From Amoebophrya sp. A120 (taxonomy: Eukaryota; Protista; Dinoflagellata): a stretch of DNA of 64,000 nucleotides. The DNA lies in NCBI GenBank assembly GCA_905178155.1, contig CAJINV010000007.1, forward strand, positions 686,859 to 750,858, given 5' to 3'. This document shows, one piece after another, positions 24,701-50,700 of this stretch (the stretch's first letter is position 1; the number at the start of each line of letters is the position of its first letter). The position numbers and the translations under genes were made by a program. A model generated the notes under the pieces. It saw only the letters and a program-made list of their open reading frames with translations, searched no databases and was not told where the DNA came from.

Positions 24701-25350
24701 CAACAAGCCAGCGGCTCAAGCGAATATCAAATGCAAAAGTGTCTGGGTCTGGAAAGTTGGAACTTGTGATGCTAACTTTGGACTCTAAAAAGATCTGTAT
24801 TGCATGAGTAGCAAAGGGAATGTAATTTTTGCTACGCGGATAGAGCATTTCTCATGCGAAATAGGCATCAAGAACCCCTCGAAAAATCTGGGATGCTACG
24901 ACATGCATCACAGACATCATGGCTCGTGCAAAACGTGCATGACAAGTCTCAGAATCTCCCAGACCCAGACATTTTTGCATTTGATAGCCAAGAAACAGCA
25001 GCAATTTGCCGAGGACCATTTGTTCACTCGCCGCGATTATGAACTGAAGAAGTATCGTCGCACTAGTAGTAGTTCGTTGTACTTGCAATACAAATTAGCT
25101 TAGCATGGCGAATGAAGCTTGTCATGGTGATTCAACTCGGGAAGAAATTTTGTTTTGCATGACTGCAATTAGAAGTACGAGCAAGTCGAAGATACTTTTT
25201 CAATGCATAGCGATAGTAGCGAAACGATTTACGCGAGTGCATTTGAGCGGTACGAGCAGCGGCAGGGCGGGGTGGTAAACTCGGCGCTGAAGGGGGCGTA
25301 GGGGAGGTCCTGCAAATTTGCTGAGGAACAGGAACACATATAGTGGTTGA
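18798..25350 (+). CDS. YbaK/ProX/PrdX-like aminoacyl-tRNA editing domain protein; 11 introners plus GT-AG introns 20183-20350 and probably 24297-24508
   Basis: Rebuilt peptide MKDWVVG..HTTHNMFVKCKKTKEMYLITVRQKSKIDLKSFAVALGAKELRLCKDREDYLGSTRGCITALALFYD..VKWVVE resembles PrdX motifs (KNLFLKDKK..VDLK..LG..LRFA..LG..G.VT). Invisible in the ORF track because the exons are tiny. Confidence 0.7.
18808..18983. mobile_element. Introner, family H
   Basis: TATCCACAGTA..TTGTATTGCATA; DR GGATT. Confidence 0.8.
19076..19304. mobile_element. Introner, family E
   Basis: TIR ..AGTGCACAACTCCCCCTC; DR CAATG. Confidence 0.88.
19346..19668. mobile_element. Introner, family B body with D-like right end
   Basis: DR TCACA/GCACA. 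Confidence 0.82.
19767..20130. mobile_element. Introner, family A (degenerate)
   Basis: TATCAAATGCAAAT..ATTTGCATTTCATA; DR CTTCG/CTGCG. Confidence 0.8.
20402..20686. mobile_element. Introner, G-like (degenerate)
   Basis: DR TTTAC/TCTAC; frame restored. Confidence 0.65.
20717..20930. mobile_element. Introner, family G
   Basis: TIR; DR ATGGG. Confidence 0.9.
20950..21073. mobile_element. Introner, family A (short)
   Basis: Degenerate TIR; DR CCGAA. Confidence 0.82.
21122..21332. mobile_element. Introner, family E
   Basis: TIR; DR TCAGG. Confidence 0.9.
21412..23993 (-). mobile_element. 5'-truncated non-LTR retrotransposon (LINE) nested inside a family F introner
   Basis: The RT ORF starts abruptly in RT motif 1. 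A (CTA)5 tail lies at 21412-21426. The flanks rejoin as family F sequence (ctcaactgt|tacatg), matching the reverse complement of the 31038 element. Confidence 0.85.
21472..23985 (-). CDS. Reverse transcriptase (non-LTR type, N-terminally truncated) with C-terminal Cys/His fingers
   Basis: KLCTKIYSDRL, QFGFR, VDLKKAFPSL, GTKEGCVSSP, LFADD, NLGS. CxxC..H motifs follow (CMWC, CKSC, CRKC). 837 codons with no stop and no introners. Confidence 0.92.
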   Translation of the reverse strand: MSPCLLKLCTKIYSDRLYKVLEDKQYFCETQFGFRANRGTLESIMIWNRMKEDLSHYSRHKSSRLLATLVDLKKAFPSLDWRLVTAVMDTLGIGEATCWSVINSSHRHAKHEFYDPETKKPGNRFTLENGTKEGCVSSPLVFLISCTAVMKYHRLLRRQEGSESLKGVRLYSRADLGHMKRTDQLHEITGGEKPEEGEPELSIDHVMDLLFADDTTLLEHMTEEELQQFLKINAELIGKKLAPSESKAMKLLTKALRESGCRENDAKRFSGNICDMSVRNLGSYTDPREDIRQKKRKAWTAYNKLRAKMSGVSNLFAERRGELIIIMIRSIFLYGLAARYVSPDEVRALEREEIAMMQRIQDIPWWERVLQKKSAADLRRKLKVPPFGVHLKYLQMRFVGHVLRRKPTDLARRALVGKFVPILYRGASAGNALEDGLRARAEVLRSVKELKEVDAKERRVESFLQDALEHLTKKCKMPLEMVQLLTEDLEATQARQPEELPSGSALYAANKRLFHAMTRQCFIRETAEDWSNGDADLRQKITDDLAIKYFGNPGQTPTRAEAIKAAQEQDPDVREGDVVHALPTGQPSALEHFDAQRQCMWCAQNYPQAASWGTTDGGPSVEMIAHMQQEHPVKKSTNTDVKALVMKKAEQISNEQDQEIRCEIIERNSDILRDKMARGPAAHIKKIFCKSCELMYASTAGAMEKHAQVHRQNGYIRTGRKKDAQGRATGDYRPEQHLWNHWTGRYYFGSDAKGWRNVLPRDALFTNRAGCEFLRCRKCKTYKILFNHDNRVERPHDHSESLRISKMAAHEGACKPKEKRANHQPKPKRAMKKVVKS
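24725..24986. mobile_element. Introner, family A
   Basis: TIR; DR GCGAA/GCCAA. Confidence 0.9.
25038..25209. mobile_element. Introner, family C
   Basis: TIR; DR GCGAT. Confidence 0.85.
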
Positions 25351-27014: not shown

Positions 27015-30000
27015 ATGACAGTCCTCTCCCCGGAAATCTACCTAGACAGCGACAACGACCTTGTTCTCCCCTACAACAATAGCGACAAAAACAACAACAA
27101 CCCAGCGCAACAACCACAACCCGGCGCGGCTTCCAAAGCCCCGAGAGGTCTCCAGAAGGTGAAGCCGAAAGAGGGCGCGCCGAAGGATGACTTATCAACT
27201 GCAAACATGTCTGGGTCTGGAAGAATGGAACTTGTGATGCTGTCTTTGGATTCTGAAAAAATTTGTATTGCATGACCAGCAACAGCAGTCCACTTTGTGC
27301 TACTTACACAGAGAGGGCGTTTCCCATGCGGAAAAGGCATCAGAAAGGGTTCTAAAAATCTGAGATGGTAGGGCATGCATCACAGACAATCGTGGGTCGT
27401 GCCAAATATGCATGACAAACCTGGCAATCAATCTTCCAGACCCAGACATATTTGCATTTGATATGACTGGCAGAAGTACCAGAAGCTGTCTCTGCACGAG
27501 CACATTTTACTCCGGGGCGACAGTTATCAAATGCAAATATTCCTGGATGTCTGGAAGATTGCGAGACTTGTCATGCCAGTCTGGCATGTCTCTGCACTCT
27601 GTATTGCGTGGCCACCAAGAGGTCCTGCTCTTGCCTGTCATGCAAAAGCGCAGTTCCTCATGCGGAATGCGCTTCACAGAATCACGAAAAAACTTGTCAT
27701 GCTTGGCGGCGCCGCATTACAGAGCACTTATTGTTCACGGAGTTGCGTCACAAGTTTCCAGATCCAGACATATTTGCATTTGATAACAGTTACGTCGGGA
27801 GTTGCGAGCCGGAAGATGGGGACTTCTGGGTCGTTTCGGAAACCGACGCGACCAAGATGGAGAAGCGAACGCTGAAGTACGCCCCGGGTCTGTTTTATCA
27901 AATGCAAATATGCCTGGGTCTGGAAGACAGGAGTAACTTGTGATGCTAAGTCTACACCCTGTGAAAATCTGTGTTGCATGACTGCCAACAGTTGTCCACT
28001 TTTGACCAAGTTGCGAGGGAGTTTCTCATGCAGGACAGGCATGATAGAGATCTCACAGAATCTGTCGCGCCAGGTCCTGCATTTCAGACCTCATGGGTCA
28101 TGGAAAATCTGCATGACAAGCTTCCACGCTTCCAGACCCAGACATATTTGCATTTGATATGTTCAAGATCTTCGACGAGATTCTGGTCAACGCCGCGGAT
28201 AACTTGCAGCGGGATGATAGTATGAGCACTATCCGGGTAAAGATCTCTTCCCAAGAGATCTCCGTCGAGAACGACGGTCAGGTATCAAAGTGAAAAATCC
28301 CCCCTCCCCATATTGAAGCGGAAACTTCTGTTGCTGGATTTGGGTACACAAATCAGCCCTGTCTTGCAGTGAGGCACTACACCAGGCAAAGCCGCAGCCT
28401 GCGTGGGGGTGTTTTGCTGTAGGCGCTTAGCATAACAGAGGCCTGCCATGTAGGTGAAACAGCATTACAAAGCGCCTCCATAAGGCGGCGGATTCTCTGG
28501 GGTTGCCTTCTTGCAAGAGAGACAGGATTTGTGGTCACAAATCAGCATCACAAACGTAACGTTTCAATATTTATGGTGAGGGAGGATTTTTCTTCGCAAT
28601 ATCAGGGGGTGAGGATAGCTCCGCACCAGAAGGAAACCGAAAAAACTGCCGACGGGAAGCACGAACAAAAAATCATGATCCCAACGATGATTTTCGGTTC
28701 CTTGCTATGCAGTGCAAAAGTATCGTACTCGTATAAAATGCATTACAAATTTCCGCAGCATGAGAAATTAAATTTGTAATGCGGACGATTTACCTTGTAA
28801 TACAATACGAGTGCGATACTTTTGCACAGGATACTTGCTCGCCGGTGACAACTTCAACGACAACAAGAAGCGGTGCGCGGGGGGACGGAACGGATACGGG
28901 GCGAAGCTAGCGAACGTGTACTCGATATCCTCTGCAAAAACATCACCACCCCAGAGTTTTCATGCGGATTTGCAATTGTAGGAACATTTGTAATGCGCAT
29001 CCCCATGAGAGGCATTTCCAGTCGTGTTTCGGAATTTCTGATGCTGTAAACAGGATAAGCAGATGGCCCTGTGATGCGGCTGCACTTTCCAGACTGCACT
29101 ACAATGCAGAGAGGAACTTGTCATGCGTGACTCCCAAAGCTTCTGGATTTGTGTTGCGAGATCCCCATGATCTTGACTCCGGGGTGGGGACGTTTTTACA
29201 CAGAATACTCGACCATGTTCCGAGTGGAAACGGTGGATAAGAAGGGACAGGATCGGCTCGGAAAACCGGTGAAATACTTCTCCCAAGAGTGGACCCGGAA
29301 CATGTTTGATAAACAGGAACCAATCCTGTTGCCCGAAGTCCCGGAGGCGGCGTCAAAAAATTCCGGGCTGAAGCAATTCACCCGGGTGACGTTCCGGCCC
29401 GATATGAGTAAGTTCCAGTCTAAAGCGAAAAGTGCAAATGCGAGTAACCCGTTGGAGTTGAAGAAGGAACAACTTCTTCTAGAGGACAACAAACAGCTCG
29501 AAATGGACGCCGACATCCTCGCCCTGATGACGAGAAGAGTCTACGACTTGGCCGCCTGCACCCCACCGCACGTCGCGGTTTTTTTGAACGACAAGGAGTT
29601 GCCGATTAGAACTTTCAAGGACTACGTCGGGATGTTCGACGCGCAATTTTATGACAATGCACAACTCTCTCTCTCCCTCAGCATTTGTATGGGATGAACA
29701 GCAGTACAAACACCAGCACACGTAGAGCCTATGCATGCCAAATTTGTGCACCTGATCATGTAGTACTGTTTGGGCTTGAGCTTGTTTCGCATTTGTCATG
29801 CAAACAGTGCCACAAGGCAGCGACTGGATTTGGGATTTTGCATGACAACATTGACAAATGAGGGGGAGTGGGAGTTGTGCACTGTCATAAATTTTCCACC
29901 AGCACCAAAACACAACTCAGCAATGTGAAGAAGGAAGAGGTGGAAAAAATAGATGAAAGCGGTGGAATGAATAACGCAAACAACAAAATCATCTCCGACG

Positions 30001-33000
30001 AAGATGATTCTCAAAATAACTCTAGAGAAGATTCTCTCTCCGAGCAGCACAAGAACCTGATCAAGGCCACCATTGTCGACCCAGAGGAGTGCGATCACGA
30101 TCCAACCAAGGTTCGCCCCTCGAAAAGATGGGAGGTGTACATCGGGATGAGTGAAAAAACGCAGTTTCAGCACGTTTCCTTTGCGAATTGCATCGCGACC
30201 ACGAAGGGCGGAACCCACGTGTCGCACGTGGAAGCGCCGTTGGTGGAACGGATTTGGGAGAAAGCTAGGGATAGTTACGACGGGAAGTTTAAGATCACGA
30301 GGCCGCACATCAAAAACCACTTGTTTCTGTTCATCAACGCGTATGTGGAAAATCCTACCTTTAACTCGCAAACGAAAGAAGACATGACGAGCTTGCCGAA
30401 GGACTTCGGGTCGAAATGTGTCTTGTCGGAAGAAACGGTCCAAGCGGTTTTGAACTGCGGGATTGTAGACACGATTGTGAAGTGGGCGAATGCGAAGCAA
30501 CAGGCGGAATTGGCGAAAAGGTACAACTTCGATACCAGTTGGACTTACCTAGTAGAGTGTTGTTCATGCAAATGAAATGCATTTCCACAAATCGCCAACT
30601 GTGACCGTAATCCAATCGAATTCTGCACACGAAAGAACCATACATAAAGATGAAAAACCATTACTTAAATTTCTATCAGGGCCAAGATCTCCAGCAAGTC
30701 TTTAACGAAGCTGATCATCCCGAAGCTCGTATGAAATGTAAAAATGTCTTGGTCTGGAAGACTGCATGTTTGTCATGCTTGTCTGGCATGACTCTTAAAT
30801 CTGTCATGCACGTTACCCAAGAGCTCCATTTTTCTGTGATCCAGAAACGCAGTTTGTCATGCAGAATAGGCAAGAACACCTAGAAGCTCAGAAACTTGCC
30901 ATGCTGAGCCAGCACTTGTGGCCTCATCATGAGACGCCACCCAGCATCACAAGTTTCCAGACCCAGACATTTTTACATTTGATAGCTCGAGGACGCGAAC
31001 CATGCGGGAACCGCCGCTGCAATGGACTGCACGTTGATATGGCGTTCTCAAATCGGTTACCTTCTTAACTGTTAGTACACGATTTCTCTTCATGCAAACT
31101 TACAACCAGAATCGACGCGATCAAGCTGCATCGCATGACAAATGCTCGAAAAGGAGCGAAACAGGCTAAGAATCTGCGCCAAGTCTGTCATGCAAGACGC
31201 GCAAGGTCACCCATTTCACTTTTGCCATTCTTGCATCACAAATCCATGTAACAGGTGAGAATGTAACAGTTGAGAGCGCCATAGTCGATCCTAACAGAGG
31301 GAGATTCCGCGAAAGCCACCGCAATGGCGGGTCTCGGCGTGGTCGGCCGGGACTACTACGGTGTGTTCCCCCTCCGCGGAAAAGTCTTAAACGTCCGGAA
31401 CGCGAACCCGGCGCAGGTGACGAACAACAAGGAAATCGTGAATTTGTGTAAAATTCTCGGGCTGGAGATCCCGTCCACCGCGTTATCCGGGAAGAACTTG
31501 GCCTTGGAGGACAGGATAAAGGAAGAGGAGCTCATGGAGTCCCAAGTCGAGGTGCTGAAGAAAAAGATGCGGTACGGCTCGGTCACCATCATGACGGATC
31601 AGGATTACGATGGCTCGCACATCAAGGGGCTGCTATTGAATTTACTGCAGTACTACTGGCCAAGTTTAATTCGTCACGAGCCGCAGTTCGTTCGGGAATT
31701 CGTGACGCCGATCGTGAAAGTCACGAAAAAGAAGGAAACGATCGTGTTTTTCACCGTAGCGGAGTACGAAGCTTGGAAGGAGAACACGCCGGCGGAGGAA
31801 CGGAAAAGGTGGAAGGCCAAATACTACAAAGGTACAGACGTTTCTTTTGACTGACTTTTTCATGCGCTCAGAGTGTCGCTTCTTGTGGTTGTGCCTGTTA
31901 TGGACAGAAGCAGAACTGCATGTTGACGAGTACTTACTAGTAGAGAAAAACTACAAAAAGGCTAAGCCACAAAATCTTCTATATTTATTATCCCCCAGGT
32001 CTCGGAACCTCCACCGGAAAAGAAGCAAAGCAGTACTTCGAAAAGTTGGATCGTCACTCCCTGGCTTTCAAGTACGAGAACGATCATGATGACGACAATC
32101 TCTCGATGGCGTTCGACCAAAAACGCGCGGACGACCGGAAAGAATGGATCCGGAATTTGAATGCGGATGAGTACATCGATCACAACGAATCGGAACTCAC
32201 GATCACGGAATTTATCAAGAAGGAGCTCGTCTTCATGGCCGAATACGACGTGATGCGGTCCATTCCGAACGTGATGGACGGGTTTAAGCCCACGCAGAGG
32301 AAAATTCTCTACTGTGCCTTCAAGAAGAAACTGAAGAGCGACATCAAGGTACAGTATTTTTACCCGTACAGCAACTCCAACTCCTTTGGCGGCATGCTTC
32401 ATTTTGTCGTGTTTTGTCATGCACAATCTCAAAGAGGTACGTTGCTTGTCATGCTGCAAGGCGAGGACGACGAACAAATCGATCAGGTCGCGCAACTCGC
32501 GGGGTATGTTTCCGAGAAGGCAGCTTACCATCATGGTGAAGTCTCCTTAGAAGGCGCGATCGTCGGCATGGCGCAGGACTTCGTCGGCTCGAATAACGTG
32601 AAATTACTCGTCCCCAGCGGGCAATTCGGAACGCGAATTGAAGGTGGAAAGGATCACGCTGCGAGCAGGTACGGGAAATCTGTATTGGAATTTCGAAACA
32701 GTAGTAAGTACTATGCGTAGGTACTGAAGAAGCGACAAGAGGCACGTTGACAAATCTAGATCTGAGTATAGAATTTTCGCATGAGATGAAACTAGAACTA
32801 TTACAACATCCAGAGAAACAAGTAAAGCACTCTCTGCTCGTAATATTCAATCTTCAGGTACATCTACACCCGGCTGAACAACCCCCTGACCCGCGCGATT
32901 TTTCTATGAAATGTAAAAATGTCTGGGTCTGGAAACTTGTAATGCTGCGTTGGGAATGGTGAATGCTCTGTAATGCACAGGCAAGCATGAGAAATATCTG

Positions 33001-36000
33001 CGCTTCTTTGTGTTGCGTTTTTCGCATGACAAACTGCGTTTTTGCATGACAGGCAAAAGGGTCTCTTCTTGGACACGCATCACAAACTTTCTGGTCATGC
33101 CAGAAAAGCATGACAAATCTCAAAATCTTCCAGACCCAGACATTTTTGCATTTGATATTTTCACCCCGATGACGACAAAATTCTCGAGTACAACCAGGAG
33201 GAGGGAAAGTATCAAATGCACATACGTCTGGGTCTGGAAACTTGTGATACTGGGTGGCGATCATGATTGAACATACTCCTGAGTGCGACCAAGCATGACA
33301 AATTTTGCGGAAACTTTCTCATGCGTAGTGTGCATGAGAAACTGCGCTTCTGCATGACAAAGGAAGGCTCCTTTTCCTGGTCATGCAATACAGATTTTAC
33401 AGGAATCCAAGTCACGCAATACAGGTTCCACTCTTCCAGGCCCAGAAACTTTTGCATTTGATAGGAAGTGGATTGAACCCAAACTTTTCTGCCCGGTCAT
33501 CCCGATGGTGCTAGTCAACGGCGCGGAGGGTATCGGGACCGGTTGGTCGACCTCCATCCCGAATTACGACCCCAGAGACGTGGTGGAGAACTGCCGCATC
33601 TTCATCAAGCGACACTTATTGAACACGAAGCACAAACGATCGAAATCGAAGCAGCAGAGTGTCGTGGAAAACGAGAACGGGGACGTGATAATGGTGGATG
33701 ACGATGATGATGATAAGGATGCTATCCTAAGTAAAAACGTCTCCACCCCATAGTCAAGTTGGGAACTTTGCAACACAAATCCACCAGTTTTGCGACTCAC
33801 GCATGACAAACTTTCCCCTGTATTGTAGAGCGGGTTAGCAAGGAAAGCTGCATCACAAATCCATCTCTTGATCTTGTTTACAGCATTACAAATGCCAAAA
33901 CACGACCGAAAGTGCCTCTTATGGGGTTGCGCATGGCAATTGTTTCTGTTATTGCGAATCTGCATGACAACTCTGGGGTGGGGAGGGTTTTAAACAGGAT
34001 AGATGCCGAGCAACAGAATGCGAATCTTCCGAATTACATCGAGATGAAGCCGTGGTTCCGGAATTTTCGCGGGGAAGTGCGGGGGAAGTCGGGCGCGAAG
34101 AATTTCACTACGGAAGGGTGCGTGTCGGTCACAGTCCACGAAGATGGATCGAGCACGGTGGAGATCACGGAACTTCCGATCAGAGTGTGGTATGCATTGC
34201 AAAAGAATCGTACAACTTTACTACGTGGTAATTGCATTTACAAATTAGCCCAGCATGACGACAAGTCAGTGGAATTTGTCATGCAGATTCACCTTGGGAA
34301 GGGGGTTTGTAATGCGTGACTGCGATTACATTTAATTTACTACCAGTGCGATACTTTTACAATCCATATGTGGACGCAGGCTTACAAGGAGAAGTTGCTG
34401 AAAATGATCAGCGACGACAAGCATGGAATCCGGGATTTTAGAGAGTATCGAAAAATGTCTGAATTTTTGGTGATGTAGTTTCCTGTCACGCATAATTATA
34501 TTGGAGAAAAACTATCTCTATCGCGATGAAGTTGATTCGAAAAACCATCGCGAGTGCCGCAGCCGAGCATCCTTGGTTTCAGGGTTTTAGGATTTAGGGT
34601 CTCTGCTCCCGACTTCGCTGTGCCGCATCGAGCTGCACCACGGAGTAAGTAAGTAGTTGTTTCGCAATGAAAAGACAAATAAAAGCCTCGTCCTAAATCA
34701 CAGGCACCACACCGATGTCACCGTCCACTTCTCCATCGACTTGACCGAGCCGGGGCAAGTGCAGGCCGAGGCTGCGGGTTACATGAAGTACTTCGGTCTG
34801 TCCTCCTCACTCGCTACCAGCAACATGATGGGTTTCAACAAGGAGCACAAGATCTACAAGTACGACAGCCCCCTCGACATCGTGAAGGAATTCTGCGGAT
34901 TCCGGGTGGAATTTTATCAAAAACGGAAGAAATACTTGCTCGACAAATTAAAACAGTCCGAATGCGAACTGGAAAACCAGCGCAGGTTCGTGTTAGCCGT
35001 GGTGAAACGGGAGCTGATTGTCCGGAAGCGGAAAATTGCGGACATTTTACAAGACTTGCGAGCCATGAACTTCGTGACAAAGTCGGTTTTGAACTCTATG
35101 GCGGCGAGATCCGAGCGGGAGGAGGAGGAAAACGCGGAAAAGGATGAAGAAAACGAAGATAACGACAACGACGGCGACAATAACGACCCTGGTTCCGACG
35201 ACGAGGCGAATGAGGACGATGAAAATAATCGGGCCAGTAACAACGCGGCAAACAATGCGAGGAAAGAGTACGACTACTTGCTCGGCATGCCGCTGTCCTC
35301 CCTGACCACCGATAAGGTGAAGGAACTCGAGCAGACGTACAAGGGAAAAGTAGCGGAAAGGGAAATCCTCGAGAAGAAATCCGTCGCGGATCTGTGGCTC
35401 GCGGATTTGGACGATATGCATTGCACAAAATATATCTGGGTCTGGAAGATTGCCAGATTTGTCATGCTTGTCTGACATAGCTCGGAACTCTGTCATGCGT
35501 AGGTGCAAAAAGATCGCTTTGTCTGTGATGCAAAAGCGCAGTCTGCCATACGGAATACGCTACACGTAGCAGGAGCCCAAAAACTTGTCATGCTTGGCCA
35601 CGTATGACAGTGTGCCCAGTATCTATTCCCTGGCTTGCATCACAAGTTTCCAGACCCAGACATACTTGCAATGCATAGACGAGATCATGGTGCAATTGGA
35701 CGCCGAAGACGCTTTTTACGACGCGGAATTGGCGGAAGCGCGGAAACAGCAAGAAAAGGCAATGGGGTTCAAAATCGGCGGTGCGGCTGGGGATAATAAA
35801 TCGAAGATGGCCAAGAAATTGAAGAAGAACAAAGAAGGAGGTGGAACATTAAATAATGCAGGAGATCATGACGACAACAACGACGCTCCCGGTGAGGACA
35901 AGAAGCCGAAGGCGCCGAAGATGAAAAGGAAAATTAAGGAAGAAGGTGCGGAAGGTGCTGCAAACGACCAGGACCCGGACCTAGCTGGTGCTGGCCCCGC

Positions 36001-38251
36001 ATCCCAACTGGATGATCGAGCCGTTTCAGGAGATCTTCAAGCCGCGGAAGACCCAGCTGCGGGTGGTGCTGTGGACAAGCCGCCGAAAAAGAGAAAAATG
36101 AAGAAGGAAAGATTACTGCCGGCGGAGGACGAGGAAAATGATGAGACGAACGAGGAAATAAATGCTGGTCCATCTTCAAAGCCGCCTGTTGCTGTTCCTC
36201 CTCCTGCTGCTGCTGATCAGGATGTGAAAATGGAAGTAGATCCTCCTGCTCCGGCGACGTCAAATGCGATAAACTACGACGACGGCGTTCTGAGGAACGA
36301 AGACGGGACGGTGAAATTGAACAAAAACGGCAAACCCGCCATGAAACGCGGGCCAGCACCGAAGAACAAGCAGATGAGAGATATCAAATGTAAAAATGTC
36401 TGGGTCTGGATGTGGAAGAGTGCATGTTTGTCGTGCTTGTCTGGCATGACTCTCAAATCTGTCACGCACGTTACCCAAGAGCGCCACTTTTCTGTCATAC
36501 AGAAACGCAGTTTGTCATGCAGAATAGGCAACACCTAGAAGCTCAGAAACTTGTCATGCTGAGCCAGCAATTGTGGCTTCCTCATGATACGCCACACAGC
36601 ATCAGAAGTTTCCAGACCCAGACATATTTGCAGTTGATAAAAGAAGATTCCAAGCAAGTATCTGCCTCGGTCGAAGCGAGTCTAGAAGGGAGTAAGAAGC
36701 CAAGTAAAGAGGCATCAAGTAAAGCTCCTACTTCTTCCCAGCAGGACAACATAGAGCTGACGAAGAACGGTGTGCCGAAGAAGAAGCCAGGCCGGAAGCC
36801 GAAGCAGGATCACAATGTCGAAACGAGTAAAAATGCAGAGGAGAAGACCTCTTCCATCCAACCCTCGCCCGCAGCGGGAGGCGAGCAACAAGAAGCTGTT
36901 AAGAAAAAGCGCGGCCGGCCGTCGAAGGACGAGTTACTGGCCAAGACGAGGCAGGGGAGTAAGGAAAAAGAAAACAGTGGCGAGAACGAGGAAAATCACC
37001 GAGCGAAATCTTCAAAATCCAGCAAGGCGCCGGTACAAAACGACGACGACGAAGAGGATCACCCCCCGGCTAAGAAGCAGAAGGTAAAGAAGGAGAAGAA
37101 GAAACTGTCGAAGGAAGAAGTACCTGTAGTACTACCTCCTGGTATGCAGATGAAAGAGTACACGTACGAAGATTACAAAAAGTTGGAAGACGAGGAAAAC
37201 TCGCTGAAAGGGCAGCCCCGACAGACCCGGATCACGAAAAATCGACTGCATGAAATCGAGAAAGAGAAAAAGCGAATCATCTCCTCCGGCTGGAAATTAC
37301 CAGTTGCGGTTGTTTCAACGACTGCTGGTGGTGGTGGTGCAGCAGCTCCAGCAGCTGCGCTAGGCGCTGGTGGTCCTGCTGCTTCCTCTTCTTCTTCCTC
37401 CTCTGCGGCCATTTCAAATCCAAATCCGGTGATGCTTTTAAACCCGGACGTCCTCGGTGGCGGCGCACCTACAATTTTTTCAACGTCTTCCGGTCCTGGT
37501 GCAGCAGCAGCCCCAGCCACTGAAGGCCCCGGACGAGCAGGTGTCGTGGGCAGTAGTGGTAGTTCCTCCTCGTCTTCCTCCGCCGCGGGAGGTGGACAAC
37601 TACCACCACCGCCAGCTGCTTTTGTACCCGACGGGGGCGCAGCAAAGCCAGTGTCCATCCCGATGAAGATTTTACGGAAGGAAGATGGGAGGAAGAAGAA
37701 GGATATCAACTGCAAAAATGTCTGGGTCTGGAAGATTGGAACTTGTGATGCTAACTCTGGACTTTAAAAAAATCTGTAATTGCATGACCAGCAATAGGAG
37801 CCCGGTTTGTGCTACGCGGGGAGGGCATTTGTCATGCGGGATAGGCATCAGGAAGACCTCTAGAAATATGTGATGCCAGACCATGCATTACAAACGTCGT
37901 GGCTCATGGAAAATATGCATGACAAATCTAGAAATCTTCCAGACCCAGACATTTTTACATTTGATAAAGGAAAACAATAAACCTGCGGGCGGGCTGAACA
38001 TTCCCGGGAAGGGGGCGGTGCCAAAGCTAACCGGACCGAAGGCGAAAAAGAAGAAAAATGAGGGCGGTGTGGCAGGCGGGGATTTGTTGCAGGAAGGAGG
38101 GCGGGCTGGTGCTGGGCAGATGAAAGAGGAAAAGCAGGAAGATGGTGCCGGCAATGATAAACAGCCGGAACAAACTTCTTCGAGCAAGGAACCGGTGAAA
38201 GAGGAGGCTGCAGGTGATCCGGCTCCGGAAGCGGCTGCGAAAGAAGAGTAA
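27015..38251 (+). CDS. TOP2: DNA topoisomerase II (type IIA); 16 introners plus 5 GT-AG introns (30521-30679, 31832-31998, 32349-32486, 32669-32857, 34445-34703)
   Basis: Rebuilt motifs: YQKLSLHEHILLRGDSYVGS, PGLFKIFDEILVNAADN, GGRNGYGAKLANVYS, IPKLEDAN, TLILTEGDSAK, PLRGKVLNVR, IMTDQDYDGSHIKGLL, YYKGLGTS, DGFKPTQRKI, AYHHGE, catalytic ASRYIYT, VLVNGAEGIGTGWST, ITELP. Long K/E-rich C-terminal tail. Confidence 0.97.
27193..27463. mobile_element. Introner, family A (TOP2)
   Basis: TIR; DR TGACT. Confidence 0.92.
27525..27785. mobile_element. Introner, family A (TOP2)
   Basis: TIR; DR ACAGT; restores DSYVGS. Confidence 0.92.
27896..28159. mobile_element. Introner, family A (TOP2)
   Basis: DR TGTTT/TGTTC; restores PGLFKIFDE. 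Confidence 0.92.
28283..28601. mobile_element. Introner, family B (TOP2)
   Basis: DR TCAGG; restores NDGQG. Confidence 0.9.
28706..28833. mobile_element. Introner, family C (TOP2)
   Basis: DR CTTGC; restores FGSLLAGDNF. Confidence 0.92.
28926..29207. mobile_element. Introner, family D (TOP2)
   Basis: DR CTCGA; restores NVYSTMF. Confidence 0.9.
29650..29889. mobile_element. Introner, family E (TOP2)
   Basis: TIR TATGACAATGCACAACTC; DR AATTT. Confidence 0.9.
30730..30984. mobile_element. Introner, family A (TOP2)
   Basis: DR GCTCG; restores PKLEDAN. Confidence 0.92.
31038..31283. mobile_element. Introner, family F (TOP2)
   Basis: TATGGCGTTCTCAA / TTGAGAGCGCCATA; DR GTTGA/GTCGA; restores TLILTEGDSAK. 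Confidence 0.9.
32905..33157. mobile_element. Introner, family A (TOP2)
   Basis: DR TTTTC. Confidence 0.92.
33210..33463. mobile_element. Introner, family A (TOP2)
   Basis: DR GAAAG/GGAAG; restores GKWIEP. Confidence 0.9.
33723..34001. mobile_element. Introner, family D (TOP2)
   Basis: DR GATGC; opposite orientation to the 28926 copy. Confidence 0.9.
34191..34368. mobile_element. Introner, family C (TOP2)
   Basis: DR TGTGG; restores ELPIRVWTQAYK. Confidence 0.88.
35415..35677. mobile_element. Introner, family A (TOP2)
   Basis: DR GACGA. Confidence 0.9.
36382..36639. mobile_element. Introner, family A (TOP2)
   Basis: DR AGAGA/AAAGA; close sister of the 30730 copy. Confidence 0.88.
37704..37966. 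mobile_element. Introner, family A (TOP2)
   Basis: DR AAGGA; close sister of the 3858 copy. Confidence 0.92.
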
Positions 38252-41959: not shown

Positions 41960-42463
41960 ACCGGCAGTCCTTATTTTCGCAGCGTACGAAAAACGGCATG
42001 GCATGTCGTTCAGGAAGTTCCACTCGCTGCGTGTAGGATGTTGATGGCCCTGTTTTATTCCGATGTGACATACTTCTTTCCGTTAGGTATCGCACAGTAC
42101 GTCTTCAGCCTACCCAAGCTGTACCCTTCTGAGAAGATATGACTTCATCCGAAGACGATGCAAATGTTGCAATGCGTAAATAAAAAACTCTTTGCGCTTG
42201 TTGCGTGAGGCCCATTCAGATTGGCTAGAATATGATTTTGGATGAAGGAGTAGACTTTTGCTCGTTCCTCGCCTAGCAGTGGTAGAATTTTCTCCAGAAA
42301 TGCTCTGCGTCGTCGGTCGGCGCTTAATATCCACGAAAGTGACATGATATCGACCCCCTACCCCTAGTTGTCGCCGCGGCGTGTCTCTGCACACAAAAAT
42401 CTGAATTTAGATTTACAGTTTATCCTAGGACGAGACAATTCCTTTAATACCAAGAAGATAAAA

Positions 42464-45400
42464 ATGCTGCTCGCCATTTGGCTGAGGCTATTCCTGCGTG
42501 GTCCTGGTTCTCTGCTTCTTGCATCAGTGCAGTTGCAGTTGCTCTCGTCGTCGTCCATCCTAGCCGGAGTTTTGCTATATCATGTTCATCCCATTTCTAA
42601 TTTCGCCTTCGCAGTCCACCTCGTGCCTCCAGCCAGCGAGGGAACAACTGGTGGAAGTACTACCGCTGGTAAAAACGGTTCATCAGCAACAGCAGCGTCA
42701 ACATCTTCTACTCCTGCCGGAGATGAAGTAGATCAAGATGTTGACGATAGGGATAGCCACGCCGTCGGGGCCCGGTCTTCCACAGAACAAACCACGCTGC
42801 TGCAGCAGGGACGACCGCGACCAGATGATGAACGAAGGGACTACACCAGAGCTGGGAATCATGTTGGTACAGGCGTTGCAGCCCCATCTACTGTCGCGGA
42901 ACAAGCAGTCCTGGACTACGAGTCGGGAGGGGAGATTATTTCCTCGTCTTCTTTCAGACGGGAGGAAGATGGAGCATTCGAATCTTCTTCTTCACGAGGC
43001 CGGCGCTCCTCTGTTGCTAGTGCAGCTCCTCGCCGCGCACCAGCGTGGTCGTCCACCTCTTTTACATTGATGAGCATGATACCGGTCGGCGGTGCTGGGG
43101 AAACAACGAATCAGAATTCTAGCTCTGAAGACGAGGAAAATCACAACGAGGATGGCGACGATGTTGTTGTTGATGTTGTTGAGCACGACCACATGGATGA
43201 TGAAAACATGCTGGCTACAACTAGAAGCACTTCTGTAGATGACGCCGGAGAACTTGTACATGAAACAACGCCAGATGTAGTCGCAGTTGTGCCGAGCAGC
43301 CCTGGGACCGTGAGCCACGAACTCGTCACAGCAGATCATGCAGAAGATGAAGATGAAGCTGGTGTCACGACGACAATCGTCTCGCCGGATGATGATGATG
43401 ATGATGCGTCTGCTCGCTTTCCGTTTGATTTCACAACCGATGTTCACGAGCCTGAGCAAATGGAGGACAAACCTCCCGGGGGTGGATTCCTGCAAAAAGC
43501 TACAGCACCCCAAGAACAACTACACCAACGGCGACAGAAGAAGATCGAAAGGAAGGCATCAGCGTATGCCAGCGAAGCAGGTCCACGACCATGGATAAAA
43601 CAGACGAAGCTTGGACGGTCGAAAATGAGCGCAGAACAACAGGTACAAGTAAAAGCTCAGGTGTTACACAACCCTGCTTTGACGATGGCACCCGAGGTGA
43701 AGGACTACAAACTAGTACAACCAGAGGGTACAACTTCTGGAGCACCACATCAGGAGGGACCACGCACCGGTACTAGCGCCTCCTCGTCTTGTTGCGATGA
43801 GGATGATGGCATCAACGATGCGAGAGTGAACGCCACGGACGGAGGTCGGGGAGTCGCCAGGCTGCAGCAAACAGAACGGAAACTCGTGCGCAAGGTCCGC
43901 ACCACTCCGACACTACTTTTTTACAAGCGGCTTCGCGACAGCGCCGATGATCGAGATCACGAGAAACACGGATTGAATCGGACGAGAATAGATCCGATCT
44001 ATCTTCTATCCTATGGAAAAACGTCCCCACCCCAGAGTCATCAAGATAGGGCTTTTGCTACACATCAAATCAGCAAGCTTTGCCTGTTGCGCATGGCAAG
44101 CTCGGGTCTCTAGTGTAGTTGTGTTTATTGGCTAGTGATGCCGCATCACAAATCCTGCTCCCTATCCTGAGTAGAGCATGACAAAGTACTAGAAAGCATG
44201 AGAAAGCGCTGCTCAACATGGTGTTGCGCATGAGAAACAATTTAGGCTTGCAGGTTATTTGCATGACAACGAACTCTGGGGGCGGTGGGGACGTTTTTAC
44301 TTAGGATATCTTTATAAGGCTAGCACGCACGTTCTAAAGGATCTAGACACAATGGGGCTCGACAGAAAAATCCAGGCCGCTCTGGACGAGACGCCGACCT
44401 TGGCGCTCTCGGATGTGGTATTCGATTTGCGGATGAGCGACACGCTGAGAGCGGTGTACGAAGCCCGGGAAAAGGAAGATTTGCACAAGTACCGCAACGT
44501 GCGGGACCCCGCTTTAAAAAGGGAGAAGGTGAGGCCGTGGAAATGTGTCCAGTTTTTGCACTATCAAATGCAAAAATGTCTCGGTCTGGAGGGTTCTAAA
44601 CTTGTAATGCTGTCTCTGGATTCTGAAAAAATTTGTATTGCGTGACCAGCAAGAGAGCTCCAGTTTGTGCTACGCGGAGAGGGCATTTCTCATGCGGCAG
44701 AGGCGTCAAAAAGTCCTCTAAAAATCTGTGATGCTAGGGTATACATCACAGACATCATGGGTCATTCAAAATATGCATGACAAAGACAAACCTGGTAGTC
44801 TTCCAGACCCAGACACTTTTGCATTTGATATGCAGCAGGTGTCCACGCGGGATGCCACGCTGAGCAAGAAGGAACACCACAACGAAGTGGTGCACATTCG
44901 GGGTGAAGATCTCTCGTATCCTAAGCTGTGGAAAGGAAAGCAACTGCCGTGGGAGATGCGCCTGTACCGCGGGAAGGACGTGCGCATGGGGAGTTGCGAA
45001 GAGTGCGGCATTGTGTGGGACCCGCCAGTATCCACAGTAAATTTCCCGTACACGTACAAATGCGGTCTCTGCATGACAAAAATTGGCTTTGATCCTAGTT
45101 TAGCATGACAAGTTTTACTCTCCAAATTGGTGAAGTTTGTGATGCATCCTGTACATGTACGGGAAATTTGTATTGCATAGCCAGACGACAAGATGTCTTG
45201 CGTGGAAACCTACAAAGTCGGGCTGCGGGGAGAAGAAACGCTGCTAGAGTACTCCACCTACTACCTCATCAACGAAGAGACGAGGGCAGCGGACTGGTTC
45301 AACGTGAAACTATGCATTTTTGCAAATGTGTCATCTGGGTCCGAATCATGCAAAAATCTGTGTTGCATGATTAAGTACCAATAATGCTGTCCACTTTTGA

Positions 45401-46875
45401 GCAAAGCCGAGAGGCAGTTTCTCATGCGGAAAAGGCATGGTAAAGATCTCACAGAATCTGTGAAGATGCCAGGAGATGCATCTTCACAGACCTCATGCGT
45501 CATGCAAAACGTGTATGACAAATGTTGCACTTCTTTTCTAGACCCAGATCGATATTTGTATTTGATAGAAACTGCTAAAAGACGACGAGCAGCTCCGTCT
45601 GGACGTAATTCAACTCGCCGACCAAGATATGCACTGCAAAAGTATCGTACTAGTACAAATCGCAATACAAATTGGCTCAGCATTACAAATTAAATTTGTA
45701 ATGCGGATTTACCTAACCAACTAGATTTCGATTTGTGATGTATAACTGCGATTACTATGAGTACGATATTTTTGCACAGGATACAAGAGAGCGGAGGCTG
45801 CAGCACGTGCTGTTGTGTCGTGGTCACCTTGGTGGTGCTCCTCGTGGTGCTCATTCTCGCGATAGCCGCCTACCTTTACTTCTACCGTTGGGGGGATGGG
45901 GATGCCTGGGAGCACGAAATGGACAACGAAGATTTAGACAAGGCTAATACGGATGACGAGAACATCAATACAGAGGCAGATACTAGCCTGAGAAGTCTTC
46001 ACGGTCAGGACCCTGAGGAGGCCGAGCAGCTTGGGAACAATTTTGACAGTGAAATAAACGACCGCAGTGGACAGGATCATCGGGGTCGTGGTTTATTCCA
46101 GAACAAAATGCCCCTGCCCTCCCCGCCGCCGGGATTTTCTTTGGCCCCCGAAAACGGCAGGAATTTGATTTTCTCCCCACCGGTCAGCAGTTACGAACAG
46201 ATACAGAAACTGCAACGAGAACAGGGCGTGGGTACGACGAAAGTGGACGAGGATGCGAAACAAAAAATCATACCGCAAGTCGTCCACGTCCAGTCCGCGG
46301 CGGAGAATGTGTTTTACGCGCCAACCACAATCGAGCCCAGCATGAACACAGAACCGAGCTTGACAAGCTTCGTGCCGCCTTCCGGCCTTGCAGGAGTCCC
46401 TGGGTCTATCTTCGCCGCCGGCGCGCCACTGTCAGGTCGTGGGGGATATGAAGAAGAAGAAGAAGCGCCAGGAGTAGCAGCTCTAGCGCTAGGTGGGCAG
46501 CCTGTTGAAGAAGAAGTAGACCATGGGTCAAAAAAAACTCCACTGTCGATGAAACAGGCGTACGAGCGGACGCGACGAGGGAAGATCGGGTTTGCCTGGG
46601 AGGGGGAGCAGCTGCCGTACTATGATGGCGGAGATTTGAATTATTTTAACCACGACGGGAGTCGTGCAGTTCTTGACAGCACCTCCTCCTCCTCCTCCTC
46701 CCGTGCGAGGCAGGGTGTGCACAAAAACCTGCGGGGGGATGAAGAAATTCTGCAAGAGCCATCATCTGGTGCGGGGACGAGGGTGAAAATATTAAACACC
46801 CGAGATGAAGAAGAACCATCAACAGGGCAGGCTAGAAGGAGCAGCGGGAATAGACGGAGTAAAGGCACTGCGTAA
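42464..46875 (+). CDS. Putative type I membrane/surface protein (hydrophobic N-terminus, one TM helix), 5 introners
   Basis: ATG 42464 (MLLAIWLRLF..). The frame is continuous after removing 5 elements. TM segment CCCVVVTLVVLLVVLILAIAAYLYFY. TAA ends at 46875. Confidence 0.7.
44007..44308. mobile_element. Introner, family D
   Basis: TIR TATCCTA..AAAAACGTCCCCACC; DR TCTTC/TCTTT. Confidence 0.88.
44562..44830. mobile_element. Introner, family A
   Basis: DR TGCAC/TGCAG. Confidence 0.9.
45029..45179. mobile_element. Introner, family H
   Basis: AAATTTCCCGTACA.GTACA inverted repeat; DR GCCAG. Confidence 0.88.
45311..45567. mobile_element. Introner, family A (degenerate)
   Basis: DR GAAAC. Confidence 0.82.
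45628..45783. mobile_element. Introner, family C
   Basis: DR CAAGA. Confidence 0.9.
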
Positions 46876-47779
46876 AGATAGTAAGTACCAAAAGTAACCA
46901 TAGCTGCAGAGGACGTATAGAACGAGTCGTAAAACTCGACGATTGAATAAAAAATCGGATAAACTCAAAGTTAGTAATCGCATTATACAGTATGAAATAA
47001 TTCTATCTTGTGTTGAAAGTCCAAACTTTTTATCCTTCCGAGCAGGGGAATAACGTTCGAAAGAAAACAAGCCAAGTCCTCTTCTACAGACGAACCGTAC
47101 TCCTGCGGCCTCCAGTTGTCGCTCGTTCTGTGGTGAAACGTCCGGGAAAGATGTTCTTTTCAGTGGTCATTACTCTTACTTTTGTTAACACCATCGCTTT
47201 ATTCCCATCGTTCGTTTTTTCTTTATCGGCTGACACGGCCATGATTTGGTATGCAAGTAGCCACGAGGACGACCTGTCTTTTCATAAGTACTTAACCTGC
47301 TTCGGTTTCTTCTTCTGAGAGCTATTGTAGGGAGAATCTTCTTCTTGTTCAAAAATAAAAGTACTTAAAAAAATCTTGTCTTGTTGTACGTTCGTGCACA
47401 CCTTCCTCCTTTTTATTCGAGAGCGTAGATCTTGGCTTGGAAGAACTGCACGTGAGTGGATAGTCAATCATGTCGAGTAGGCGTTTGAAGTGCTTATTTC
47501 CATACGTCTGGCCACTGTGGAGGTACTTCTTAGTCCTGCAAAGGGTTTATCGTGTTGACTAGTGACTGTCGTGTTTGTTTTGATCATATTGGCTTGTCCT
47601 GAAGTAAGAGTAGACGCAGTCCAGTCCTGCAGGTGGACCACATGCAAGGCAAAATGTTAACAAGGACTATTCACCTGCTCTGTGCAGCCTGAGGACCCCC
47701 TGGGCTTGGCGGCAAGAAGCTTGTTGTTTCGTCTTCCGCTGATCACATTTGACAACACGAGGCTACTACATCAAGGAGG

Positions 47780-50700
47780 ATGGCCTGTTTTGGTGGAGGC
47801 AAGCTGAAAAAGGAGCGCGATGCCTTGGCGCAGCAAAAGCAGGACCTCGAGGCCAAGGTCGCGCAGCAGCAGGCCGAGGCACAGCAACTGAGGCAGAAGC
47901 TGCAGCAGGTTCTTATTTACATTCTTGTTTCACGAATGATTTTATGAACTGCAAAAGTATCGTACTCCTACTCGTATAAATGCATTACAAATTTCCTCAG
48001 CATGAGAAATCAAATTTGCAATGCGGATTTACCGTAAAAAAAAGATTTGTAATGCAAGACTTGCATTTAATTATCCAAAAGGCGGAGACCCAAGCCAAAA
48101 CCGCGAAGACAACCGCTGACGAAGAGAAGGGGCAGCGGGAAAACGTTATGCATTGCAAATATATCTGGGTCTGGAAACTTGTAATGCTGAATGGCCATGA
48201 TTCACCGTGCCTTTCAGTGCAGTGCAGCATGACAAATTTTTCAAACGCTCTGTCCTGCGCAGGACGCATTACAAAGTGCGTTTTTGCAACATGAGGAAAG
48301 CGTGGTGCTTCATTTGCTGCTATATGCAATACAGATTTTTTAGGAATGCGAAACACGCAATACAGGCGCAATCATTCCAGACCCAGACATATTTGCATTT
48401 GATAAACGTGCAGAATCAACTGAATAAGGAGTTGACGAAGCTGCAAAAAGACAAAGACAAGGTGGACAAGAGGATGAAGATTCTCCAGCAGGAATTCACG
48501 ATCCTGCAAATATCAAATGCAAAAGTGTCTGGGTCTGGGAGATTCTGAGACTTGTCATGCACGTTTTGCATGAGCCATGATTTCTGTAATGCATGCCGTA
48601 GCATCACAGATTTTTCGAGGGGTTCCTGATGCCTACTTCGCATGACAAATGCCCTATCCGCGTAGCAAAAATTACATTCCCTTTGCTACTCATGCAATGC
48701 AAATTTTTTTGGAATCCAAATGCAGCATCACAGGTTGCATTCTTCCAGACCCAGACATTTTTGCATTTGATAGCAAACCGAGGCGGACAAAACCATCCAG
48801 CAATACGCGATAGGGGATTTGTATGCTCTGCAAGAAAAGTATCGTAGTACTAATCGCATTCATGCATTACAAATCTGGTTCCATATTAGGCAAATCAGCA
48901 TGACAAATTCCATTTGTCATGCTGAGCGAATTTGTATTGCAATCACTACTAGCGCGATACTGTTCCAGTTCATAATTTGCGGAAGAAACCCTTTCTGCTC
49001 CTTTTCGAAGCCTACGACGGCGACAACGGGACCTTCCTGGGGGAGCAGCTTCTCATCGGAACGGGCGAGTTCGCGCTAATGGACCGCGCGGTGCACTCTC
49101 GCTACGACGTATGCAAGAAGAAAACTGTGGAAGTGTAACTCTGTAATGCAGAATATGGAAGAGAGTTACATCTGTCATGCCAGACAGCCATGAAGTCCTC
49201 GTTCCATGTCAGTGTTTTCCCTTACAAGCCGCGCATGACAGGTTTTTTCTATGATCATGTAGAGCAAATCTGTGATGCTGTCAGCCACAGAAAGTTACAC
49301 TAACACAGTTTTTTTCTTGGATACGACGCGAGTAAGGAACAAGCTTCCGCCAGCAAAAATCCGACGCGAAGGATACACGTGGTGTGTGAAGAGAGCAACG
49401 ACCATATCCAGGAGAAAAACTGTGTTAGCGTAGGTGCTTTGGTGGAGTGATAGCATGACAAATTGGCTCTGCGTGACTTCTGATCGAGCCTGTCATGTTG
49501 CACAACTAGTACGTGAAAAGGAAAACGCACATGGAAACAAGTGGACTGCATGGCTGTCTGGCATGACAAGTGTAGCTGTGTTGGTTTTTGCTGCATTACA
49601 GAATTACAATTCTTAGGCAGTTTCTTTCTTGCATAGACCAGCTCGCGGTCAGATCCCTGTACCAAGAAGGCGGATCCAGTAGCTCCACCGCGTTTTCGCC
49701 CCCCTTGGCCGGCGGGACGTCTGCGAGCAGTCCACCGCCCGGGACGAACAGCAACAAAGTCGACTACCATTCCGTGCTCTACAAGGTTTGGCTGAAGCGG
49801 GGCAAGATGACAGCAAAGAGTGGAGCAGCAGCGGGAGGTTCTGCTGGCACGGAGCAGCCATTAGATTCGGAGCAGGAGCAAGACGAGGGGAAAGAAAAGC
49901 CCGCTGTATGGGAGCAAGTGGCGATGGAGCACAGCGAGATATTAAATGCAAAAGTAACTATGACTGGGTTGGGAAATTCAAATTTGTGTTGTTGAAGCTG
50001 CTTTATTTACAGAGTGGCAACTTGTACAGCATAGCAGCATCAGGCTGTACTACTTTTGCAGATTCTTTCGTAATGAAACACACGACAGATCATGGCTGAG
50101 TTTCAACACAGGAGCATGACAAAACACCTTGCCAGTCGTATTTTATGCATCACAAAATCAAATACAAATCCTTCTTGTGCTTCTTCAGATATCATCTCAT
50201 TTTCGCAAATCCAGACCAAGATCAAAAATATTTGCAAAACAATGCATACGAGATCATACCAGGCGACTTGTTAGAAGATCCGAACCAATACGGCTGGGTA
50301 GCGGGGTATGGATGTGTCAGAATCGAAATCAACAAAATCGAAATCGCTTGTGATGCATAAAATCGATACCAGTTGGAGCCTCAGTTTCCAATTGGCGCAT
50401 GACAAATTTCGGCAGCACGAAAATCCAGTCTCTCATGCTGTTTGGGCAAAGAACGCTGCTCCTGTCGTGCTACTCTGGCAGCACATCGCCTCCCCCTAAA
50501 CAGGCTCGCAATCGGTCTTATTTGCCTCCTCCCCAACACAGGCCATACGTGCCCTACATTTTATGCATTGCAAATTTTTCGATTTTGTCGATTTCGATCC
50601 TGACACTCCCATACGGGGTTCAGCAATGGTCTGAGCACGGAGGAACCACTCATCTTAGACTACGAAGCGCTGAATCTCCACGGGTATAACACCGTGGAGC

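What the first reader, a model, noticed from the sequence alone, without database searches (positions are those of the whole stretch)
24725..48772. Introners work in either orientation
Seen: sister copies lie in opposite orientations inside + strand genes: A 24725 vs 48511 (near reverse complements), D 28926 vs 33723, E 29650 vs 52330, F 21378 vs 31038, B 2514 vs 19346. Known: spliceosomal signals (donor, branch point, acceptor) are strand-specific. Inference: recognition relies on symmetric features such as the TIR hairpin and two-way motifs. That points to structure-based RNA splicing or DNA-level excision.
Basis: partly seen in the sequence, partly recalled or inferred. Interest (0 to 1): 0.8.

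Follow-up and report, generated by a model that had tools for sequence, protein, structure and literature searches.

The report
Two-way hairpin introns in Amoebophrya
These are the already-described transposon-derived hairpin introns of the marine parasite Amoebophrya A120: sister copies sit both ways round inside genes and both are cut out of the RNA, likely because their mirror-image ends fix the cut one base before and four bases after the element without needing the usual GT-AG signals.

Summary
Observation confirmed. All five pairs are reverse complements, and all ten copies lie in + strand reading frames. The window is Amoebophrya sp. A120, whose TAT...ATA introners were described in 2021. 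One topoisomerase II gene carries 16 elements, with families A and D in both orientations; removing each element plus 5 nt gives a 2,076-aa ORF, and keeping any one truncates it. Spliced contigs lack family A copies of both orientations (4 and 5), while DNA-type contigs keep elements: removal is at RNA level and DNA excision is not supported. Only 5 of 61 elements can be read as GT/GC-AG in any register. I did not find the following in print: nine informative junctions all fit one cut, 1 nt before TAT and 4 nt after ATA. The TIR then supplies donor positions +2 to +4 in either orientation. Only one junction fixes this exactly, and the machinery is untested. Two-way introners are known from Aureococcus and Polarella, where they use G-starting donors and AG acceptors.

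The parts
24725..24986 (+). Family A introner, majority orientation, in the YbaK/tRNA_edit-domain gene; TSD imperfect at position 3
   Evidence: absent from annotated A120 protein P0123; not shown directly in RNA
48511..48772 (-). Family A introner, reverse orientation; removed with 5 nt in spliced contigs
   Evidence: joint 48505>48773 in X2 and X4; 238/262 reverse identity to 24725
28926..29207 (-). Family D introner in Top2, opposite to 33723
   Evidence: removal required for the ORF and colinear with homologues; not shown in RNA
33723..34001 (+). Family D introner in Top2
   Evidence: removal shown by exact length arithmetic on X1 record 3
29650..29889 (-). Family E introner in Top2, opposite to 52330
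   Evidence: not shown in RNA
52330..52554 (+). Family E introner; RNA keeps the left TSD copy at position 3
   Evidence: joint 52327>52558
21378..24210 (-). Family F introner (21378 to about 21411, plus 23994-24210) split by a LINE; perfect 5-nt TSD
   Evidence: absent from P0123; terminal duplex z -10.6
21412..23993 (-). 5'-truncated non-LTR retrotransposon (RVT_1 match, short trinucleotide tail) nested in the F element
   Evidence: (E 9e-14); class is my reading of the RT motifs and tail
31038..31283 (+). Family F introner in Top2; left TSD copy kept at position 3 (gives the conserved Leu of the TOPRIM motif)
2514..2835 (+). Family B introner
   Evidence: + frame open across seven elements; no homologue or RNA check
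19346..19668 (-). Family B introner, reverse orientation, with a mismatched (D-like) 3' end and weak terminal pairing
27015..38251 (+). DNA topoisomerase II gene: 16 introners plus 5 GT-AG introns, 2,076 aa after removal; family A in both orientations (27193, 27525, 27896, 30730, 35415, 36382, 37704 versus 32905, 33210)
   Evidence: 11 of 11 offsets match X1 record 3
53083..53374 (+). Non-canonical GT..CT intron with no direct repeat, likely a decayed introner; the only junction that fixes the register exactly (1 nt before TA, 4 nt after ATA)
   Evidence: joint 53082>53375, both=0, in X1, X2, X4; folds end to end; no family match inside
44007..44830 (+). Two introners (44007-44308, 44562-44830) whose TSDs differ at position 5; the right copy is the one kept
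   Evidence: annotated A120 protein P0122 matches with 0 mismatches over 1,083 aa; X1 record 2 stops at 44560

Best explanation
The elements are Amoebophrya A120 introners, short transposon-like inserts with inverted ends and a 5-nt target duplication, that are removed from the RNA in both orientations, likely at a fixed cut 1 nt before the opening TAT and 4 nt after the closing ATA, and likely by a relaxed spliceosome guided by those ends. Shown: both orientations occur in the same genes; removal of element plus 5 nt is needed for the protein; spliced contigs lack them and DNA-type contigs keep them; GT/AG is not required. Inferred: (1) they spread as MITE-like DNA transposons and insert either way round; (2) because the ends are mirror images, either orientation presents N-TAT at the 5' side, matching positions +2 to +4 of this organism's ordinary donors (GTAC/GTAT), and a T-run plus ATA at the 3' side; (3) pairing of +2 with -5 brings the ends together and the 3' cut is set by distance from the helix base or from the ATA motif rather than by AG; (4) since the cut falls at equivalent positions of the two TSD copies, the original exon is restored whatever the target sequence.
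For: Top2: 16 of 16 retentions truncate the ORF, as does cutting the element without the 5 nt; 11 of 11 contig offsets match. RNA removal of 22 elements: 15 direct (11 joints; adjacent pieces at 35415, 36382, 37704 and 45628) and 7 by exact length arithmetic; family A 4 plus and 5 minus, C 2 and 1, G 2 and 1. The same contigs skip GT-AG introns, so they are spliced RNA. X5 contigs run through elements and GT-AG introns unspliced (table 8). Termini: TAT 57, TAC 2, TAG 1 and ATA 59, ATC 1 of 60; exact 5-nt TSD in 44 of 61, none at 3, 4, 6, 7, 8 nt. Register: left TSD copy kept at positions 1-3 at 31038, 36382, 52330, 53636, 50728 (RNA) and 19767 (annotation); right copy kept at position 5 at 44562 (annotation, weak RNA) and 44007 (annotation); exact at 53083-53374. 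I wrote the register down in note 2 knowing only 31038 and 36382; the other 7 of 7 fitted (p 0.013 under a uniform random register; 0.077 without the exact one). Ordinary donors in the window: GTAC 7, GTAT 1, GTAA 2, GTTC 1 of 11. AG at the predicted 3' end in 9 of 61 against 7% background (p 0.025, one-sided). Farhat et al. found nearly all spliceosome proteins and U2, U4, U5, U6 in A120 but not U1 snRNA or snRNP27; loss of SNRNP27K goes with a +4 U preference in yeasts (abstract).
Against: Nothing here tests which machinery cuts: no lariat, circle or knock-down data. G at +1 is not enriched (19 of 61, p 0.78), which a standard spliceosome would want. Registers 3 and 4 are separated by one junction only, whose identity as an introner rests on its ends and folding (terminal duplex z 0.1, no family match). 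All RNA comes from one sample, one contig per run; three of the nine sites rest mainly on the published annotation. No informative site is in the minority orientation of family A, so register invariance under inversion is inferred from symmetry. A strong terminal helix is not always present: 48822 (3.5 expected end pairs) is removed in RNA, and 19346 (1.1) is absent from the annotated protein. A mild orientation bias may exist (majority orientation 37 of 52, p 0.046). 10 of the 17 single-base TSD mismatches (leaving out 53083) are synonymous, more than I would expect if the intronic copy were free. Farhat et al. describe the splice sites as variable relative to the hairpin.
Confidence: 0.55

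Rival explanations
1. Same RNA-level, orientation-free, fixed-register removal, but by a separate non-spliceosomal endonuclease and ligase that measure from the hairpin base, as proposed for Euglena nonconventional introns.
For: 36 of 61 elements have neither G at +1 nor AG at the predicted 3' end. Euglena nonconventional introns also have offset terminal pairing with a longer 3' overhang and are reported to leave as circles. U1 snRNA was not detected in A120.
Against: N-TAT lines up with the ordinary GTAY donor only at this register; AG is mildly enriched at the predicted 3' end; hybrid ends occur (GT..CT at 53083; GT..AG in 3 of 61), whereas hybrids are described as rare in Euglena; weakly paired copies are still removed.
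Confidence: 0.3
2. The cut slides within the 5-nt duplication (several registers in use), and the apparent fixed register is a small-sample effect.
For: 44 of 61 TSDs are perfect, so the register cannot be seen there; synonymous mismatches are common (10 of 17); Farhat et al. report inverted repeats 1-5 nt from annotated splice sites; p is 0.077 without the single exact junction.
Against: All nine informative sites fit one register; registers 0-2 are excluded at three sites and register 5 at three; annotated boundaries at perfect repeats are arbitrary, so the published spread is expected under any register.
Confidence: 0.12
3. The elements are excised from DNA (transposase-like or programmed elimination) in the expressed template.
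For: They look like DNA transposons; only the 15 best-supported joints were shown (2,170 more were not), so rare excised DNA forms are not excluded; life stages were not compared.
Against: The assembly and X5 contigs keep the elements; contigs lacking elements also lack GT-AG introns; the kept halves of the TSD follow transcription direction; 53083-53374 is removed with no direct repeat.
Confidence: 0.02
4. The junctions are reverse-transcriptase template-switch artefacts across hairpins with direct repeats (a known artefact class, recalled).
For: A hairpin plus a short direct repeat is the signature of such artefacts; all RNA evidence here is from assembled contigs, presumably of cDNA.
Against: Top2 cannot be made unless all 16 are removed; junctions fall in conserved colinear blocks at 12 of 16 sites; one junction has no repeat to switch on.
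Confidence: 0.01

Closest known systems
Amoebophrya A120 introner elements (Farhat et al. 2021, PMC7789003; 58 families in Gozashti et al. 2025, PMC12130899)
   Same: Same organism and the same elements: inverted repeats starting TAT, seven looser bases, then an A-run; 3-5 nt direct repeats; about 240 nt; hairpin model; RNA-seq-supported removal.
   Different: In the sections, passages and supplement parts I read there is no statement on element orientation, and the boundary is called unknown or variable; here both orientations are shown removed and one register is proposed.
Two-way introners of Polarella glacialis and Aureococcus anophagefferens (Roy et al. preprint 10.1101/2020.10.14.339549; the Aureococcus case as cited there)
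   Same: TSD-flanked DNA-transposon introners that create introns in either orientation, usually with a bias to one.
   Different: They use GT/GC/GA donors and AG acceptors carried by the element or recruited from a constrained TSD; here the TSD is unconstrained and 56 of 61 elements have no GT/GC-AG register.
Euglena nonconventional introns (PMC12501133)
   Same: No GT-AG, terminal base pairing offset from the splice sites with a longer 3' overhang, direct repeats that hide the boundary, suspected MITE origin.
   Different: The signature is N3CDG...CH'GN5-6 with a purine after the cut, against N-TAY...RTA-N4 here; unrelated lineage; orientation is not mentioned in that paper's main text (0 hits).
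IS3EU/GingerRoot DNA transposons (PMC10045372)
   Same: TA..TA termini.
   Different: Their TSDs are usually 6 bp; here 5 nt; no transposase was found in the window.

Membership tests
Amoebophrya A120 introner elements | Organism is A120 | tested here: met
   two exons match named A120 proteins at 100%; spliced model equals P0122 over 1,083 aa
Amoebophrya A120 introner elements | Inverted repeat begins TAT, seven looser bases, then at least three A | tested here: met
   against the text
Amoebophrya A120 introner elements | 3-5 nt direct repeats at the boundaries | tested here: met
   exact 5-nt repeat in 44 of 61
Amoebophrya A120 introner elements | Repeated family members removed from RNA with non-GT-AG ends | tested here: met
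Aureococcus/Polarella-type two-way spliceosomal introners | Intron creation in either orientation | tested here: met
Aureococcus/Polarella-type two-way spliceosomal introners | G-starting donor and AG acceptor from element or TSD | tested here: not met
   GT/GC..AG possible in 5 of 61 in any register; GA donors were not counted
Spliceosomal (U2-type) introns | Lariat formation at a branch adenosine; dependence on U2/U6 | not testable with these tools
   no raw reads of this strain; contigs only
Euglena-type nonconventional introns | Terminal base pairing that joins the two ends | tested here: inconclusive
   predicted for 51 of 59, weak for 48822 and 19346; prediction only
Euglena-type nonconventional introns | N3CDG...CH'GN5-6|R signature | tested here: not met
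   terminal consensus is TAT...ATA; judged from the consensus, not by a dedicated scan
Euglena-type nonconventional introns | Release as circular RNA without lariat | not testable with these tools
   needs RNase R or lariat sequencing
IS3EU/GingerRoot transposons | TA..TA termini | tested here: met
IS3EU/GingerRoot transposons | 6-bp TSD | tested here: not met
   0 of 61 at 6 nt, 44 of 61 at 5 nt
IS3EU/GingerRoot transposons | Cognate DDE transposase | not testable with these tools
   no whole genome held; none among 15 window ORFs scanned

The most novel reading that the evidence does not exclude
Amoebophrya A120 runs a splicing route that needs neither G at +1 nor AG: it reads the transposon's own mirror-image ends (N-TAY ... 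RTA-N4) and cuts at a fixed offset that exactly cancels a 5-nt target duplication. Any insertion, at any sequence, in either orientation, even one swollen to 2.8 kb by a retrotransposon, is then silent at the protein level.
Probability: 0.55. Interest if true: 0.75.

Novelty: already known. Interest (0 to 1): 0.5.

Why it matters
The elements are published, but how A120 removes tens of thousands of non-GT-AG introns is an open question, and the boundary was left undefined. A single boundary rule that holds in both orientations would turn 'no splice signature' into a definite one (NT at the 5' end, any dinucleotide 4 nt past the inverted repeat). It could be tested at once on existing A120 RNA-seq through imperfect target duplications, would tell where to look for branch points or circles, and would explain why these transposons could invade essential genes such as Top2 sixteen times. 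It would be either an unusually relaxed spliceosome or a second, independent case of Euglena-like structure-guided splicing.

Tried and rejected
No whole genome is held, so all counts are from this window. No listed holder is on record as RNA; I treat X1-X4 as RNA because they skip GT-AG introns. X1 and X3 barely covered 42300-54200, and 6 of 21 joints were not shown. The 873-codon ORF inside the F element was checked as a possible cognate transposase and is a reverse transcriptase. A metagenome scan with a Top2 exon returned no relative above 53% among 80 loci, so there are no empty-site comparisons. P0124 (82% relative) is colinear across 12133, 15424 and 15753, but its TSD mismatch is synonymous, so it says nothing on register. 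Rfam: 0 matches. Farhat Table S4 lists nine predominant A120 non-canonical ends, all NT at the 5' side, and large families in Gozashti's dataset have about 26-30% GT starts; both fit the register, but I do not count them, because spliced aligners favour GT, CT, AT and AG, AC at slidable junctions (my knowledge). I looked by eye for a shared branch-point motif and found none that holds across families. Earlier findings of this scan: none returned. Dropped before counting: 6 of 59 scan candidates (10704, 16651, 16977, 46790 as likely chance; 31058 internal to 31038; 15375 replaced by 15424); 8 were added by hand (1999, 15424, 18808, 19346, 21378, 45311, 50728, 53084), giving 61; the truncated copy at 62862 was used only in clustering. 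Searches used wrong ends for two elements (2000, 45312), corrected. Huff et al. 2016 is not held.
Full report
What the window is. Two exons match proteins named Amoebophrya sp. A120 at 100%, and the closest named Top2 homologue listed is from strain A25 (73%). The window is dense in short elements that begin TAT and end ATA. A scan for inverted ends plus flanking direct repeats found 40 at a score that 10 shuffles never reached; after dropping 6 of 59 candidates and adding 8 by hand the list has 61. Termini are TAT 57, TAC 2, TAG 1 and ATA 59, ATC 1 of the 60 counted; 44 of 61 have an exact 5-nt duplication and none an exact one of 3, 4, 6, 7 or 8 nt. This is the description of A120 introner elements in Farhat et al. 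2021 (PMC7789003, section 11).

The observation. Pairs A, D, E and B align far better as reverse complements, also with the inverted repeats trimmed away. Pair F does too, once it is seen that the copy at 21378 runs to 24210 and is split by a retrotransposon fragment. All six multi-copy families hold both orientations, with no inconsistent edge among 218. After removal, all 60 elements tested lie in an open + strand frame. There may be a slight bias to one orientation (37 of 52, p 0.046).

Both orientations must be, and are, removed. The gene at 27015-38251 is topoisomerase II. Removing 16 elements, each with 5 nt, and five GT-AG introns gives 2,076 codons without a stop; keeping any one element, or cutting it without the 5 nt, truncates the frame in 16 of 16 cases. 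It holds family A seven times one way and twice the other, and family D once each way. Twelve of the 16 junctions fall in blocks colinear with homologues, four in variable linkers. A 5,704-nt contig of run X1 matches the model at 11 of 11 offsets. In 42300-54200, contigs of X2 and X4 (one sample) show 15 joints of 21: 11 remove elements, among them 48511 and 52330, and 4 remove GT-AG introns. In all, 22 elements are shown removed, 15 directly and 7 by exact length arithmetic: family A 4 and 5, C 2 and 1, G 2 and 1 in the two orientations. Contigs of X5 run through elements and through GT-AG introns unspliced, so the DNA keeps them; its joint table was cut to the best 15 rows, so rare excision is not excluded.

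Why orientation does not matter. An inverted repeat presents the same ends to the transcript either way; for family A the commonest first and last eight bases are the same in both orientations. End-to-end pairing is predicted for 51 of 59 elements as they lie and 53 of 59 when inverted in silico. An internal 8-mer occurs 96 times forward and 94 times reverse in 59 elements, against once in 12.8 kb of coding sequence; whether it serves a transposase or splicing is unknown. GT/GC-AG can be read in only 5 of 61 elements in any of the six possible registers.

Where the cut falls. With a perfect duplication the boundary slides, but mismatched copies show which half is kept. The left copy is kept at positions 1-3 at 31038, 36382, 52330, 53636 and 50728 (RNA; at 31038 also the conserved leucine) and at 19767 (annotation). 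The right copy is kept at position 5 at 44007 and 44562 (annotation; a depth-2.3 contig end agrees at 44562). One intron, 53083-53374, has no direct repeat: it starts one base before TA, ends four bases after ATA, on CT, and folds end to end. All nine fit intron = N + element + 4 nt. I noted this register after the first two sites; the next 7 of 7 fitted, p 0.013 under a uniform register, 0.077 without the exact junction. In that register the element's TAT sits at +2 to +4, where the window's ordinary donors read TAC in 7, TAT in 1, TAA in 2 and TTC in 1 of 11; AG at the 3' end is mildly enriched (9 of 61, p 0.025), G at +1 is not (19 of 61, p 0.78), and 36 of 61 have neither.

Mechanism. I favour a relaxed spliceosome (0.55): the donor likeness, the residual AG, the hybrid ends, and Farhat's finding of nearly all spliceosome proteins with U1 snRNA and snRNP27 undetected. 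Loss of SNRNP27K is linked to +4 U donors in yeasts (PMC10581693, abstract only); applying that here is my inference. A Euglena-like endonuclease-ligase route is the main rival (0.3; PMC12501133). Against a purely structural rule, 48822 and 19346 have weak predicted end pairing yet are removed or absent from the annotated protein, which suggests that the terminal sequence is read as well. A sliding register (0.12), DNA excision (0.02) and cDNA artefact (0.01) are set out as rivals. No step about the machinery was tested.

What is known. The elements and a hairpin-based splicing idea are in Farhat et al. (seen: abstract, passages, sections 10, 11, 12, 16, supplement parts 2 and 3 of 5; figures not held; Fig. 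3 and Figs S19-S25 may bear on the register). Gozashti et al. 2025 (PMC12130899; passages, and rows 1-21 of 58 for A120 in one supplementary table; two files not searched) class most of those rows as TIR DNA elements. Two-way introners are in print for Polarella and, as cited there, Aureococcus (10.1101/2020.10.14.339549, passages; its supplements not seen). Passages only were seen of PMC9860276, PMC11282704, PMC11453091, PMC8469720 and PMC10045372; of PMC12501133 passages and section 5. Searches, and word look-ups for 'orientation', found no statement on the orientation of A120 elements or on this register; subscription papers are outside the library.

Verdict. The feature is real and the system is already known. 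The added value is a specific boundary rule, supported by nine sites from one window and one RNA sample plus annotation, that makes the open question of A120 splicing directly testable. Interest 0.5.

Noticed in passing
window 21378-24210: An introner swollen to 2.8 kb by a 5'-truncated non-LTR retrotransposon lying antisense inside it; the host protein is annotated without it and X1 depth over 21556-22219 is 0. Its removal was not shown directly.
   Followed up: partly
window 47909-48081: A GT-AG intron, spliced in RNA, contains a decayed family C element starting at 47943; other GT-AG introns carry the introner 8-mer motif (4 hits in 1,448 nt of 8 introns), so some ordinary introns may be aged introners.
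   Followed up: partly
window 15375-15424: The first part of the family A element at 15424 is duplicated 49 nt upstream with the same 5-nt flank; the relative P0124 differs from the model just there, so the copy seems to have become coding or offers a second 5' end.
   Followed up: partly
window 19346-19668: Element with a family B start and a family D-like end: a likely chimera with poorly paired termini that is still absent from the annotated protein.
   Followed up: partly
window 62862-63170: Family A copy in reverse orientation whose far end is lost in short tandem duplications; no TSD found.
   Followed up: no
whole window: 10 of 17 single-base TSD mismatches are synonymous in the host frame, more than expected if one copy were unconstrained; could be chance or a sign of some sliding.
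   Followed up: partly
whole window: All host frames found are on the + strand, in line with the long co-oriented gene blocks described for Amoebophrya; ordinary donors are mostly GTAC.
   Followed up: partly
window 37702-37759 and 21412-21445: Raw reads of runs X9 and X10, which cover no exon here, match a family A end (90-95% alike) and the retrotransposon tail: related elements exist in another strain or sample.
   Followed up: no
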